Below are positions 31,814-57,625 of a DNA stretch of 64,000 nucleotides, in pieces. The first letter of the stretch is position 1; every line of letters begins with the position of its first letter. This stretch comes from Octopus vulgaris (Eukaryota). The position numbers were made by a program, and so were the translations under genes. The stretch lies in NCBI GenBank assembly GCA_951406725.2, contig OX597831.1, forward strand, positions 10,354,001-10,418,000, written 5' to 3'. The notes under the pieces were generated by a model. The model was not told the origin of the DNA and did not search any database. It saw nothing but the letters and a program-made list of their open reading frames with translations.

Positions 31814-32187
31814 ACAATTGCAGCGTGGAAGGTGTTTATAAGCCCTTTAAGAAACACACAAAAACCGTTAGATTCACTTCAACATGTAAATTTAATTTGT
31901 CGAAATATTTTCGTCGCTTTAAGACCGCGACCTGTTCACTGACAAAAATCCGTGCTGCATCTCGTTCCAGCACACGATCTCAGATCAAGTCACTCGCTGT
32001 GCACGTACATCTCCGTAATATATATATACATATATATATATATATATGTATATATTACGGAGATGTACATGCACAGCGAGTGACTTGATCTGAGATCGTG
32101 TGCTGGAACGAGATGCAGCACGGATTTTTGTCAGTGAACAGGTCGCGGTCTTAAAGCGACGAAAATATTTTGACAAATTAAATCTAC

Positions 32188-32190
<3 letters not shown>
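31814..32190. mobile_element. Rearranged fold-back Penelope-like element with two hammerhead motifs
   Basis: Arms 31883-32018 and 32055-32190 are reverse complements around a (TA)n centre; homologous to 50063-50400. Confidence 0.85.
32127..32177 (+). ncRNA. Minimal type I hammerhead ribozyme motif, G3:C8 core variant
   Basis: Stem I TTTGTCA/TGACAAA; core GTGAACA; extra G; stem II GTCGC-9 nt-GCGAC; GAAA; palindromic ATAT loop; UH = TT. Confidence 0.7.
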
Positions 32191-32224
<34 letters not shown>

Positions 32225-42883: not shown

Positions 42884-45086
42884 TATCTACTACACTGGTC
42901 AGGTTCTTGCCCTTTATTATATTCTACGTTATGAATGCTTAACGTGTATCCGAATAAGACTATTCATCTTAGTAAAGCCAATACACCTGGTTCATGTGAT
43001 ATCGCTGTAGGACAAGTCTCTTTCGTCATAGAATTATATTTTTTAATTAGGGTCTTCCATGAAATTTCATATTTTTTCTCAACCAGTCTCCTTCAAGGTT
43101 TGAATCCATTGAGTAAAAATGTATCACTCCTATCACTGTAATTTTTTGGTAAAATATATTCTTCCTTATATTCCCAAAATTTTCATTTTTTCCCTTTCAT
43201 ATTCACAAAAACATTTCTACCTCAGTCTACCTGTCATTATTTGGAACCATATTTTGTACTTTTAAATGTGTTTCTGAAAGTGATTTTTCTTGTTGTTTGT
43301 AATTGTTTAATTCCAGATAAGCCCTGAACAAGCTGCTGTGTAATTAAAAAAACTGGTTGGGCAAGGCTGGAATAATGCTGTAAAATGAAAGAAGCGTCTG
43401 TCTGTTGTGTTTGGGTTATGTTGTACAGCAGCCGTTTCGTCGCCATTTCGTTAAAGCATAATAGAATATGCCACGCTTCAATGTGTCCAACTACGCTTTG
43501 GTCTTGCTTTCCGTCACAGTAAGCTTTACATACCTTAGATTTGGGAACGAATATTCATTTAGTAACCAACGGCGATGTATAGGTAGAATTCTTAATGGGA
43601 AACGAGAAGTCGTACGGTGTCTGTCGTGGCTCTTTATATTCAGAGTTATTCATTGATAGGGTTAATTCAACACCCGGTTGAACATCACTCCTGACTCCTT
43701 GCATGATAATCAGAGAATTAGATGTATTCGAGATAGAAGCACTAACGTCCTAAGCAAAAAGATACCCGATCTTCCTGCACATGAATAAATAAAAGATAGC
43801 TGTAAAATTTATCTCCACAAGCGAAAACTTTAGAAATTAGATTCAAGTTTCACTTGCAGTTTATCTGGTGAAAGTTATGTCTTTCATGAACAGGCTTCGG
43901 CCTCTGGCAAGCAACAGGATAACATATATATAATATAATAATGTGTTGTAGTGACGCAATATATGTCTAGTCAGAAATGCGTCGAGGTTCTCGGCTCATA
44001 AAATTTGACATCGTCTTTTATCTTATCCGGCCACTGCTAATAAGAACGTAAATACATTGATATAAACTTCGTCTGTTTGTAAAAGCAAGAAAATGTAAAA
44101 TATAGAATTAAAAATTGCAGTCATTGGTTGGAATTGAAAATATCGCAGATGAATGGTGTTATCAGCTCATAAGTGTATTTCATAGAATTTATCATTATCA
44201 GCCAAGCAATTGTTCCTGTCCATTGAAAATAAAAATTATTAACTTGAAACAGGTTTCTCTCTGTACAACATGACGGACTCTGGCAATATATTTTGTAATC
44301 AAATATTTTGGTAAAAATAGCATTAACGTTGTTGGCTAAGAATCAGAATTAGAACTAGCTAATGGCATTGATTGTTATTATTCTTAAAACAGCCTTTCAA
44401 TCAAATAGAATAAAACGCATTCATAGCTCATTCTGATTTAATACTAGTTTCCAAGTTTAATTAAAGGAGAAGCAAATAAATTGTCCTACCGCATAAAATT
44501 TAATACCAGACGAGTTATAATTATATTCCGTTGTCATATATTAACCTGAGACACAAAACACACACACAAACACACACATACACCAATATATATAATGTAA
44601 GATGCCATTAATAGCTGTGCAATTATTAATGCCTCATAAGAGTGGACAAAAATAATAAATCCTAAAGATCGTAAGATTTTACAGATCCAAAAACACATTA
44701 AAAAGTACAAAATATGGTCCCAAATAATGACAGGTTGACTGAGGTAGAAATGTTTTTGTGAATATGAAAGGGGAAAAAATGAAAATTATGGGAATATAAA
44801 GAAGAATATATTTTACCAAAAAATTACAATGATAGGAATAATACATTTTTACACAATGGATTCAAATCTTGAAGGAGACTGGTTAGGAAAAAATATGAAC
44901 TTCCATGGAAAACCCTAATTAAAAAATATAATTCTATGACGAAAGAGACTTGTCCTACAGTGATATCACTTGAACCAGGTGTATTGACTTTACTAAGATG
45001 AATAGTCTTATTCGGATACACGTTGAGCATTCATAACTTAACTTAGAATATAATAAAGAGCAAGAGCGTGACCAGTGTAGTAGATA
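42884..45086. mobile_element. Non-autonomous element with ~390-bp terminal inverted repeats
   Basis: 42884-43273 and ~44690-45086 are diverged reverse complements; the paired track ORFs 42935+ and 45030- are near identical. Confidence 0.75.
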
Positions 45087-53970: not shown

Positions 53971-56435
53971 GTACGCAAGTATATGATGAGTACTGTACGA
54001 GAAAAACTCTGATTAATAATATTCTCTTCGTAACCATATCTAAATATTCAATTCCACGTTAGCCTCATAACGTTATGTCGGATGTCCTTCATTTTATTTT
54101 CCTTCATCTATACTAGATAATATTTGCTGTGAGTCAGAGTTAATATATCCTGCAAATCCAGTGATTATTTAGAGGGAGGAGTATTTTGAAAATTACAAAT
54201 ACACTTTTGTATTCCGCTAAAATTCTAGAACTGTTTTCTGTTTACCAGAAATTTTATTTCGCCTCAGAAACAATTCTAATTAATTTGAAACATTTAACAC
54301 TCAAGGCATTCGTATTAAACTTTTTATTCCCCTCGAATTTCTTCAAAGCCGGACCTTCTCAATAAGAATCACCCTAAAATTAATTATGTGAAAATGAGGT
54401 AGGGTTTTTAGAAAGGCTTTGTTTTCCTATTTCTACCATTTTATTTTGAAATTACAAATGTTCTGGTCGGTAGGATACAGGAATTTTGACGGACGTGTCC
54501 ACAGATAACACGCTGTCACAAGGTTTTACACGAAAGTTTAGGTCAATCAATCAATATTCAATATATACTACTGGCTGGTAACAGCATAATTGATTTCTTG
54601 ACTAAAATCGTGACCAGAATTTAACGTAGGAAGGGTGTTTTGGTGCAGTTTCTAGTGCCCTATTGGTTTGCTTCTCCCTAAAATAGATTAGAAAGTAGGC
54701 AAACTCGAACCCAGAGTGATATGCAGAAGCTGCATATTCAATGAATTTAATCGAGTAGGCTCGTCAGCTAAATGTTAAGTTTAGTAGAAATTATGAGTGT
54801 TATTCATTTAGCGGGTTGGGTAGATATTAAAAAGAAAAAGAATGCATAAAGTTTTACAATATTTATCAGATACCGCTGACGCAACAGCCATCATCATAAC
54901 CACAATTATAATAAAGATAAAACTGTTATTGAAAAATTCCACCATGGCTAACAGCTATCATACCACTCTCACCATAACAACCATTACAAAACCGACATTG
55001 TATTTAACCTTAACGAGTGTTATATTTGCTCAAAATTAAGGCTACAACTAATGATGCGGTGCAAAAGAAAAGCGAAAATTAATATATGTATTGCCAGAAG
55101 AAGGATTTGGCTTCCTCTGTTTGTTGAATGAAATCTGAATAATTAGAACGTCAAATAAATTGGAAATATTGCTTCTAATTGTCTTCTAAGTCCAGACGTA
55201 TTTTATACAATGCCTGAATATATAAATGAAGCGGCAGAGATAAATTAGAAAGTAAATGACACCGTCACTGACCCCCTGACCTTTCAATTAGTGACATGTG
55301 TTGCAAGATTTCCCCAAAATATCAGTAATCAATGCGATATCGTAATCGTTCTTGTTACGTTGTTGCAGTTAGATATATATATATATATAAAATTTTATAG
55401 TCACAAATTGTAACTAAGGGTGCTTCAACCCCCTTTGTTACAATTAGCGACGACAAAATGTATTCTTTATGGTGTGGTATTAGGCATAACTGGTTATATT
55501 AATTTATATATATATATATATATATATATAGATATATACAGGTTAGCTAATCAATTGTTTTTTTCTGATTTGTGGTGAGTAAATACTTGTTATAGAGTAA
55601 CTTATTCCGGGCAGTATTACAAGTTGTACAACGTCTTGTTTGTGCAGATGTTCTCTATGTTTCATGGCATTACGTAACTATAAAGAAGCACCAATTCAGA
55701 CACATACATATACCTATAACATATACCTATAAATTCAGACATATAAAAAAAAAATGCGAACACTTAGGTTGATATGCAAAAATAAATATAATTTCTATAA
55801 TTAAAAACGCGGTTGATTAGCAGAAGCTTTACAACGTGGAATAAAATTATATGCGGTAAATTCCCCAACGCCTCATTTAGAATCAAAAACTCAGATCGAT
55901 ATAAACAACTGCAGCCTCCTCTAGATCATTATTACTATCACATTCTCCTGGTAACGGACATTTCAAGACCTGGGTTATTATTCTGAATCATACATAATAT
56001 TTTGAATCAGGCTACGCGAGAACGATTGCCGTAATACCCGGGCGATATCGCACGTCTGCTCTATGTCGGATATTTTAGAATATCCGATATATTGGATATT
56101 TCATGTATCGTTATATTTACTTTTTATCAGTAGTAGATCTGTGGCCAAATTGGGGCATCGCCTTTATGTCCTTCACTGTTGCAGTATCGTGCTTATTATA
56201 TTAGTCTCTTTTGCAGAAGAGCTAATTTACAGGGACGTAAACACACCAACGCGACTTGCCAAACGGTCGGAGAGGTAAACGTAAATACAGCGATGCACAC
56301 ATATATATTTATATACATGTATATGTCTATGATACACACACACGCACGCACTTAGATGCACACAAATATATATCTATATCTTTATCTAAATCTATTTATC
56401 TGTGTATCTATCTCGGTGAGACCTCATATACTTTT

Positions 56436-56507
56436 GGTCTCATGGTGTAATGGTTAGCACTCTGGACTCTGAATCCAGCGATCCGAGTTCATGTCTCGGT
56501 GAGACCT
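56436..56507 (+). tRNA. trnQ-CTG: tRNA-Gln(CTG), possibly a retroposed copy
   Basis: 72-nt cloverleaf: acceptor GGTCTCA/TGAGACC, anticodon arm CTGGA-CTCTGAA-TCCAG (CTG at 56469-56471), T arm CCGAG-TTCATGT-CTCGG (A58 replaced by T), then trailer catatac and T6. Confidence 0.9.
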
Positions 56508-56514
56508 CATATAC

Positions 56515-56520
56515 TTTTTT
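56515..56520 (+). terminator. Pol III oligo-T terminator
   Basis: TTTTTT 7 nt after the tRNA discriminator base. Confidence 0.7.
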
Positions 56521-57625
56521 ATGGTGGTGCCCCACCATGGCCACAGCTCGTGAGATGAAACTAGATGAAAATGAAAAATGTATGTATGTATGTATGTATG
56601 TATGTATGTATGTATGTATGTATGTATGTATGTATGTATGTATGTATGTATGTATGTATGTATGTATGTATGTATGTATGTATGTATGCATGCATGCATG
56701 CATGCATGCATGTATCTATCTATCTATCTATCTATAATTAATAGGTATTCTTCCTTTGTTAATTGTGGTAAATAATTTCATTTACTAGTTTTATTCAATA
56801 AATGTATAACATATATAGATTTTTTTTTTCTTTTTTAAATATCATTAACTTACATTTGACATAACAATGGTAAGATATACTAGTATCGATAGGGGTAAAT
56901 TTCACAATAAATTAGAACATTCCCGTAAAGTTTATACAGATTGACTGTTTAATTTAATGTGTTTATAAAATAGTAGATAAGGCTTCCGTTATGTTTAGTA
57001 CTTTCTATATATATCGATATTGTATTTTTAGCTGTTTAATTTTATTAAGCTTTTTGAATTTTTAAAATTTTATTATTTTCTTAATTTTAAAACCTTTAAA
57101 AATTTATAAAAATATATTACGAAGTTATATATATATATATATTTTTTAGTTTTCATCTTATTTTTCATGAATATATCTTAGAATTTGTAGGATTAAATTG
57201 GATCCGTTAATAATAATAATAAGAAGAAAAATTGCCTAATGACGCACTGGGGGATTTATATATTAGATATAGCCAGCTAAAGCAAACCACCTGGGCAGAA
57301 ACATGTGTAGCGTTGATTAACATTATGTTCTTTCCTCACAGACTAATAGCAGGTAAGGTATATATATTTCTGAAAATATGTTTAAAAATTTTTTAATTAA
57401 TTCTATTGTACTTTATTCTTCTTGTATGTTATAGTAGGCTTTAAAATGCTTATATTATTAGATTAGTATTTTGAATATAATTTTCTATGTGTACTCCAGA
57501 AAATATGGTTGTCCTGAAATTGAAGTTGTGGTCCGGTTGGTAAAATCCAAAATTCGTAACAATATTATATACAGATCCCAGCATGGCCACAGCTCATTAG
57601 CTGAAACTGGAAAAATCAAATCAAA

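What the first reader, a model, noticed from the sequence alone, without database searches (positions are those of the whole stretch)
56411..56580. tRNA-Gln chimera: duplicated 3' end, full tRNA with trailer, then a retroposon tail
Seen: tctcggtgagacctcatatactttt (56411-56435) exactly duplicates the tRNA 3' end plus trailer (56494-56518) and abuts the mature G1 with no 5' leader. After the terminator comes ggtggtgccccaccatggccacagctc..tgaaactag(atgaaa)n, a variant of the family A SINE tail (also seen near 57578-57610). There is no encoded CCA, and A58 is mutated. Inference: an RT primed on a LINE/SINE tail jumped to a 5'-processed, trailer-bearing pre-tRNA and then jumped again, or ran around a circularised pre-tRNA. 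This would be a snapshot of how a new SINE is assembled.
Basis: partly seen in the sequence, partly recalled or inferred. Interest (0 to 1): 0.7.

Follow-up and report, generated by a model that had tools for sequence, protein, structure and literature searches.

The report
LINE-captured pre-tRNA with doubled end
A copy of an unfinished glutamine tRNA is fused to the last 45 letters of a jumping gene (a LINE), one of at least 140 such fusions in this genome; it likely arose when the LINE's copying enzyme switched templates, likely misread a methylated tRNA base, and likely jumped once more to double the tRNA's end.

Summary
Observation confirmed. The locus is a retrocopy of a 5'-processed, trailer-bearing pre-tRNA-Gln(CTG) fused to the last ~45 nt of a LINE's 3' UTR, not to a SINE-specific tail. 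It belongs to a genome-wide class: 142 pattern hits for tRNA end + trailer + T-run + tail and 29 U6 + tail hits, joined next to the LINE's terminal hairpin. Position 58 is changed in 7 of 64 other chimeras against 10 of 550 other A sites, and in 8 of 34 dispersed against 0 of 38 clustered tRNA-Lys copies, mostly to T. That fits fossil m1A58 misreading; here it is the only difference from a clustered gene. The direct 25-nt doubling is unique among 113 chimeras. U-tract-to-first-base joints also occur in a U6-U6 dimer and a tRNA-U6-U6 triple, so a second template jump is favoured (0.47) over re-copying of the cDNA (0.32) or a circular pre-tRNA (0.11). The copy is no SINE founder: single copy, T6 terminator before the tail, altered B box. 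No empty site was obtained. Earlier scan notes hold only tailless pre-tRNA retrocopies in other genomes. New variant of a known kind.

The parts
56411..56435 (+). Second, 5'-truncated copy of the pre-tRNA 3' end: tRNA positions 60-73, 7-nt trailer, T4; joined directly to G1
   Evidence: its first 3 letters also fit the upstream 4-nt microsatellite (microhomology)
56436..56507 (+). Full tRNA-Gln(CTG) body, no 5' leader, position 58 (56492) changed from A to T
   Evidence: single difference from the clustered gene in L219/L004
56508..56520 (+). 3' trailer (7 nt) and T6 Pol III terminator tract
   Evidence: related trailers in two C5 genes and three dispersed copies
56521..56565 (+). Last ~45 nt of a LINE 3' UTR (two predicted hairpins), starting at the family's usual breakpoint
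   Evidence: 91-92% identical to LINE ends L061 and L063; fold and breakpoints; LINE ORF with endonuclease and RT
56566..56577 (+). Short A-rich terminal repeat units of the LINE tail
   Evidence: same kind of end in other copies
56578..56735 (+). Tetranucleotide microsatellite following the tail
56403..56413 (+). Candidate target-site duplication, left copy (low complexity, not secure)
   Evidence: 11-nt match to 56711-56721
56711..56721 (+). Candidate target-site duplication, right copy (low complexity, not secure)
57577..57611 (+). Separate, more deeply truncated tail-only copy of the same LINE end; not part of the chimera

Best explanation
The locus is a single-copy fusion of a trailer-bearing tRNA-Gln and a LINE 3' end, likely written in one retrotransposition event in which the LINE's reverse transcriptase likely switched to a 5'-processed pre-tRNA, likely misread m1A58 as T, and likely jumped once more from G1 onto a U-tract end of the same pre-tRNA species. 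Steps: (1) priming on the LINE 3' end in a microsatellite (inferred); (2) synthesis ends 2-5 nt past the terminal hairpin (breakpoint shown, cause inferred: a protein-protected short RNA or an RT stall); (3) switch to the oligo-U end of a nuclear pre-tRNA (class shown, jump versus prior RNA ligation inferred); (4) T put in at position 58 (excess shown, m1A cause inferred); (5) second end-to-end jump, same molecule or sister transcript, stopping 1-2 nt short of position 58 and joining the target through 3 nt of microhomology (inferred). The product is predicted to be a dead-on-arrival pseudogene. Confidence is about 0.93 for steps 1-3 and 0.47 for the whole chain with step 5.
For: Tail = LINE end: 12 of 30 tail copies carry at least 30 nt of LINE body, the ORF stop lies ~29 nt upstream, and a 956-aa ORF has zf-CCCH, endonuclease and RT domains. 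Class: 142 hits, 0 in the reversed control; 29 U6 + tail. Same trailers recur at dispersed places with unrelated flanks, and gene/retrocopy pairs exist (L018 with L019, L015 with L025, L005 with L006/L012/L038). Many heads are 5'-truncated. 8 of 14 dispersed Lys(TTT) copies viewed lack the intron that 5 of 5 clustered genes viewed carry. Position 58: 7 of 64 other chimeras changed (6 to T) versus 10 of 550 other A sites (3 to T), Fisher p=8e-4 and 7e-5; 8 of 34 dispersed versus 0 of 38 clustered Lys(TTT) copies, p=0.0015; in L149 both arms of an inverted self-copy carry T58. Step 5: the joint unites two natural RNA ends (U-tract and G1); the same kind of joint is in L208 (U6-U6 plus another tail) and L207 (pre-tRNA-Lys, U6 3' part, U6 from base 1); an R2-derived RT jumps serially end to end in vitro (10.1101/2021.04.30.442027, passages); m1A arrests RT one base 3' of the site and causes misreading (PMC4787781; PMC12140624).
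Against: The direct doubling is 1 of 113 chimeras, and none of the 113 shows a different RNA's 3' end upstream (library limited to the ends in the set), nor do the 29 U6 chimeras by eye. Both copies share a trailer that no gene in the assembly has exactly, among at least 33 distinct Gln trailers, so a random second RNA is unlikely; a same-molecule jump needs the already copied 3' end to be freed. Three chimeras carry inverted self-copies, showing that re-copying of cDNA happens. The fragment start is also one of four places in the tRNA that match the target's 3 letters, and 5' truncations of 28 Glu chimeras do not pile up at positions 59-60. The tail has 3 differences in ~45 nt from L063 while the tRNA has only position 58. 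No secure TSD; no empty site.
Confidence: 0.47

Rival explanations
1. Same chimera, but the 25-nt piece is a templated insertion copied from the new cDNA while its 5' junction was being joined: the target end primed inside the cDNA by microhomology, copied to the T-run, let go and re-primed at the cDNA end (G1).
For: Explains perfect identity and the unique trailer without a second RNA; 3-nt microhomology at the left joint; 3 of 113 chimeras have inverted self-copies (L149, L191, L198); snap-back synthesis on cDNA is a described junction class for R2 (PMC11371274, passages).
Against: The piece ends exactly in the U-tract and meets G1 with no shared letters; all self-copies seen elsewhere are inverted, none direct; U-tract-to-base-1 joints occur in L207 next to a different RNA.
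Confidence: 0.32
3. An ordinary tRNA-tail retrocopy was later duplicated at DNA level (83-nt tandem copy, then loss of its first 58 nt).
For: Microsatellite-rich, unstable surroundings; tail more diverged than the tRNA part.
Against: Needs two events whose ends fall on the RNA's natural ends; no microhomology at the G1 joint.
Confidence: 0.07
4. A native tRNA gene with a local duplication and an unrelated LINE tail inserted at its terminator.
For: Near-perfect tRNA body; tail-only insertions are common (12 of 30 sampled); a few tails do sit behind tRNAs that have another tRNA close by (L097, L116).
Against: No leader, T58, solitary position inside a microsatellite, whereas Gln genes sit in clusters with own leaders; truncated, intron-less and trailer-sharing members of the class.
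Confidence: 0.03

Closest known systems
U6/LINE template-switch chimeras (U6-L1, U6-L2, U6-RTE; Doucet et al. 2015, PMC4476161, passages read)
   Same: Pol III RNA ending in oligo-U fused in sense to a 5'-truncated LINE end; occurs with several LINE clades; triple chimeras are mentioned there and double switching is offered as one explanation.
   Different: Here pre-tRNAs of many isotypes outnumber U6 (142 versus 29 pattern hits), the LINE part is a fixed ~45-nt end, and this locus repeats the same RNA's 3' end.
tRNA/LINE-1 chimeras in primates (PMC11838501, passages read)
   Same: tRNA and LINE sequence inserted together.
   Different: Those are 21 loci, mostly tRNA halves in antisense orientation; here sense, from the trailer's U-tract, often full length, some with introns or short leaders.
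tRNA-head/CR1-tail SINEs TguSINE1 and PittSINE (Suh et al. 2017, PMC5729268, passages read)
   Same: tRNA head on a hairpin-bearing LINE tail, origin proposed by template switching.
   Different: Those amplified as families; this copy is single, keeps a terminator before the tail and has an altered B box. The class looks like the one-off precursors that this model predicts.
R2 junction classes 'extra template' and 'snap-back', and serial jumping by BoMoC (PMC11371274; 10.1101/2021.04.30.442027; passages read)
   Same: Natural counterparts of both classes are seen here (U6/pre-tRNA fusions; inverted self-copies).
   Different: Different LINE type (APE endonuclease), genomic fossils rather than engineered insertions; extra template there is almost always U6.
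Tailless retropseudogenes (Noll et al. 2015, PMC5322556, passages read)
   Same: Nuclear pre-tRNA copied by LINE machinery.
   Different: Those are 3'-truncated, tail-less and flanked by TSDs; this one keeps the 3' end and has a LINE tail.

Membership tests
Small-RNA/LINE chimeric retrocopy (U6/L1 type) | Small RNA fused in sense to a 5'-truncated LINE 3' end | tested here: met
Small-RNA/LINE chimeric retrocopy (U6/L1 type) | Small-RNA part ends at transcript ends and shows RNA marks | tested here: met
   starts at G1, ends in T-run, only change at position 58; class statistics
Small-RNA/LINE chimeric retrocopy (U6/L1 type) | One target-site duplication around the whole chimera | tested here: inconclusive
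   11-nt low-complexity candidate only; none convincing in 32 other near-full-length copies
Small-RNA/LINE chimeric retrocopy (U6/L1 type) | Empty orthologous or allelic site | tested here: inconclusive
   one search covered only the upstream flank; no record reached the joint
tRNA-derived SINE | Amplified family with the same head and tail | tested here: not met
   single copy
tRNA-derived SINE | Pol III transcript can run from head into tail | tested here: not met
   T6 at 56515-56520 lies between them (terminator rule from established knowledge)
tRNA-derived SINE | Intact A and B boxes | tested here: not met
   position 58, an invariant B-box base (established knowledge), is T
Functional tRNA-Gln gene | Cloverleaf with invariant residues | tested here: not met
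   cloverleaf found but A58 lost
Functional tRNA-Gln gene | Expression | not tested
   no RNA reads laid
Circularly permuted tRNA gene | 3' half upstream of 5' half, processed through a circle into one tRNA | tested here: not met
   upstream piece is only positions 60-73 and is followed by a complete tRNA
Tailless retropseudogene | 3'-truncated, no tail | tested here: not met
   3' end, trailer and LINE tail present
CR1-group LINE (partner element) | APE endonuclease plus RT in one ORF, short hairpin-bearing 3' UTR | tested here: met
CR1-group LINE (partner element) | RT phylogeny places it in the CR1 clade | not tested
   label rests on recalled protein motifs, no tree built

The most novel reading that the evidence does not exclude
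This genome's LINE acts as a natural small-RNA sequencer: its RT runs off a hairpin-bounded 3' fragment, captures nuclear pre-tRNAs by their oligo-U ends and leaves m1A58 misreadings in the germline DNA, and this locus records a second pass round the very same pre-tRNA molecule, possibly a ligated circle, that was misread at m1A58 first and stopped there next. The class would be a fossil record of pre-tRNA processing order and a standing pool of SINE precursors.
Probability: 0.3. Interest if true: 0.78.

Novelty: new variant of a known kind. Interest (0 to 1): 0.55.

Why it matters
The idea that SINEs are born when a LINE's RT switches from its own 3' end to a tRNA is old but rests mostly on finished SINE families. 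Here the one-off products are numerous, join at one defined place beside the LINE's hairpin, and can be sorted into those that keep a terminator (78 of 113) and those that might read through (35 of 113), which makes the model testable. The excess of changes at position 58 suggests that RNA methylation can be read from genomic retrocopies and that m1A58 is added before the 3' trailer is removed in germ cells. Practically, such copies are near-perfect tRNAs that gene finders count as genes.

Tried and rejected
Empty site: public runs were found with the upstream flank (3 of 21 rows hold half or more of the words); laying four contig runs on the upstream flank gave no cover next to the joint; organism B holds a ~94% alike flank at 55867-56249 only. 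Nothing follows from that. Source gene: no exact trailer match elsewhere. Other trailer-to-first-base joints: Gln unique; general T-loop-anchored pattern 4 hits, control 2, none real; Glu/Asp 2 hits, both gene-like; a strict G-start pattern 3 hits, none real, and it could not have matched this locus; His/Gly 1 hit, no RNA piece upstream; pre-tRNA to U6 base 1, 0 hits. Lys/Thr, Arg and Leu/Ser 5' ends were not searched, so that part stays open. Truncation hot spot at 59-60: not seen in 28 Glu chimeras. I34 editing: four A34 copies viewed keep A. Jump versus RNA ligation at the tail joint: extra letters at U6 joints do not decide it, because a LINE variant (L074) has the same letters there. A true SINE with this tail: the tRNA-like head of L077 matches two loci at 94-95% that look like its source, not an amplified family. 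Whole-window repeat search was swamped by microsatellites. Earlier scan notes: none on this genome, none with all words.

Full report
Observation. The window is G000:C18:10354001-10418000 of a 2.8-Gb, microsatellite-rich animal genome; its repeats look octopus-like to me (recalled; no call names the organism). 56411-56435 equals 56494-56518 letter for letter and abuts G1 of a tRNA-Gln(CTG) at 56436-56507. The 25-mer occurs nowhere else in the assembly. The piece is tRNA positions 60-73, the 7-nt trailer and four T; the full copy has the same trailer and six T, then the tail. The tRNA body differs from a clustered gene on C5 (L219/L004) at one place only, position 58, A to T; G59 is a normal variant.

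The tail is a LINE end. A 32-letter tail pattern has 3,444 exact hits. Of the first 30 by position on C1 (not a random sample), 12 carry at least 30 nt of a common upstream body, one carries 14 nt, and 17 lose similarity 2-5 nt upstream of the tail core; one of the 17 (L076) is a body-bearing copy with a local deletion. The other 16 are two U6 fusions, one intron-bearing pre-tRNA-Leu fusion, one tRNA-like head and 12 tail-only copies. The body encodes an RT whose stop lies ~29 nt before the tail core; a 956-aa ORF has a weak CCCH finger, an endonuclease domain and RT. I call it CR1-like from recalled motifs; no tree was built. The breakpoint lies just 5' of the first of two predicted hairpins (4-5 of 5 copies folded alike). 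Why synthesis ends there is inferred: a protein-protected short RNA or an RT stall.

The locus is one of a class. T-loop + trailer + T-run + tail gives 142 hits and 0 in the reversed control; some are not tRNAs or are older tails behind a gene array, and the strict pattern misses others. I read 91 of the 100 listed, then 15 more Glu and 7 more Gln loci, 113 in all. They cover many isotypes, including selenocysteine by eye; ARAGORN called 38 of the 60 loci given to it. Many are 5'-truncated, some keep introns or a few leader letters, the same trailers recur at scattered places with unrelated flanks, and gene/copy pairs can be named (L018 with L019, L015 with L025, L005 with L006, L012, L038). 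Among Lys(TTT), 5 of 5 clustered genes viewed have an intron and 8 of 14 dispersed copies viewed lack it. U6 + tail gives 29 hits. Pairs with the same trailer and joint carry different tail variants (L086/L110, L188/L192), so they are independent events, not an amplified family. Pre-tRNAs also sit in front of other tails and of whole SINEs.

Position 58. For 65 of the 91 loci, in ten groups of three or more (26 left out: singletons, pairs, one with an indel, non-tRNAs), position 58 is changed in 8 (7 to T) against 10 of 550 other A sites (3 to T); positions fixed by the pattern and position 59 were excluded and the reference is the group majority. Without this locus: 7 of 64, p=8e-4; A-to-T alone p=7e-5. 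An independent control: of 72 Lys(TTT) hits, 0 of 38 in the two gene clusters and 8 of 34 dispersed copies are changed, 7 to T, p=0.0015 (three of the eight are also in the first set). One of them, L224, ends in CCA and has a 15-nt flanking repeat. In L149 both arms of an inverted self-copy carry T58, so the change was present when the copy was made. m1A58 causes RT misreading and arrest one base 3' of the site (PMC4787781, passages), also for an R2-derived RT (PMC12140624, passages). The reading as a methylation fossil is inference; no RNA data were seen.

The doubled end. A direct copy of the element's own 3' end is found in 1 of 113 chimeras; three have inverted self-copies (L149, L191, L198), one more is doubtful (L197), and none has another RNA's end upstream, judged against the ends in the set. 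Searches for a T-run directly before base 1 found no second tRNA case for Gln, Glu/Asp or His/Gly; Lys/Thr, Arg and Leu/Ser were not searched. For U6, 2 of 5 loci are real serial joints: L208 is U6, T6, U6 from base 1, T7 and a different tail; L207 is pre-tRNA-Lys(CTT) with trailer, U6 29-end, then U6 1-41. U6 is capped (recalled), so these are more easily read as RT jumps than as ligations, and an R2-derived RT jumps serially end to end in vitro (10.1101/2021.04.30.442027, passages). For this locus the joint unites the RNA's two natural ends, and the piece stops within two bases of position 58 on a template whose first pass was misread there. Against: both copies share a trailer absent from every gene in the assembly out of at least 33 Gln trailers, so a chance second RNA is unlikely and the jump must be to the same molecule or a sister transcript; the start also fits 3-nt microhomology with the target, offered at four places in the tRNA; truncations of 28 Glu chimeras show no pile-up at 59-60; snap-back re-copying is a described class (PMC11371274, passages) and is seen here. 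My odds: second jump 0.47, cDNA re-copy 0.32, circle 0.11 (model in PMC3978253, passages), later duplication 0.07, native gene 0.03.

Not a SINE founder. The copy is single, a T6 terminator separates head and tail, and position 58 is a B-box base (established knowledge). In the class, 78 of 113 have four or more T at the joint and 35 have at most three (earlier T-runs not counted), so a minority could read through.

Open points. TSD: only a low-complexity 11-nt candidate. Empty site: not obtained. The tail has 3 differences in ~45 nt from L063, the tRNA only one; CpG decay and subfamily variants may explain part.

Literature. U6 fusions with L1, L2 and RTE, triple chimeras and the switch model of SINE birth are in PMC4476161 (passages); tRNA-head/CR1-tail SINEs in PMC5729268 (passages); tRNA/L1 chimeras, mostly antisense halves, in PMC11838501 (passages); tailless retrocopies in PMC5322556 (passages). 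An octopus repeat annotation lists recent CR1, U and U-L1 families but its first third, which I read, does not describe such chimeras (PMC13282606). Searches listed no paper on pre-tRNA/LINE-tail chimeras in cephalopods or on m1A58 misreadings fixed in genomic retrocopies; the library lacks most subscription papers and Repbase entries, and no supplements were read, so this is not proof of absence. Verdict: real, a new variant of a known kind; the class and its position-58 signal are more interesting than the single locus. Interest 0.55.

Noticed in passing
L207:1342-1546 (G000:C1:187.75 Mb): Triple chimera: pre-tRNA-Lys(CTT) with trailer, U6 from position 29 to its end, then U6 positions 1-41; no tail. 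Could be an internal start on U6, a jump to a U6 3' end, then a switch to a pre-tRNA.
   Followed up: partly
L208:1403-1660 (G000:C2:23.37 Mb): Head-to-tail U6 dimer followed by a different retroposon-like tail.
   Followed up: partly
L149, L191, L198: tRNA-tail chimeras with inverted self-copies (snap-back), folding back at the T arm or acceptor stem.
   Followed up: partly
L117 and L149: Both tRNA-Pro-like chimeras (typed by eye) begin at position 38, next to the usual m1G37 site, and both have T58; two cases only.
   Followed up: no
L224:1498-1573: Intron-less tRNA-Lys(TTT) copy ending in CCA, with T58 and a 15-nt flanking direct repeat: retrocopy of a mature tRNA by another route.
   Followed up: partly
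L108: Selenocysteine-tRNA-like head (by eye) with long trailer fused to the same LINE tail.
   Followed up: no
L006, L012, L021, L022, L031, L214, L227, L251: Pre-tRNA or U6 copies joined through their T-run to the first bases of whole SINEs.
   Followed up: no
L283, L284 (G000:C7:94.89 Mb) and L077: Two inverted copies of a divergent tRNA-like sequence that ARAGORN does not call, followed by T-runs; L077 looks like its retrocopy with the LINE tail.
   Followed up: partly
G000:C20:5232751-5237328: Five tRNA-Arg copies spaced ~1.1 kb apart, each followed by an old, diverged tail: an array amplified after a tail joined.
   Followed up: no
L254, L255, L269, L270 and others: U6 heads in the chimeras come from at least two or three U6 gene variants with recurring 5' differences.
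   Followed up: no
window 31882-32191: Perfectly abutting inverted repeat, 155-nt arms, 97% complementary; possibly another snap-back product.
   Followed up: no
window 42915-43197 and 44768-45050: Inverted repeat with 283-nt arms, 92% complementary, 1570 nt apart; transposon-like.
   Followed up: no
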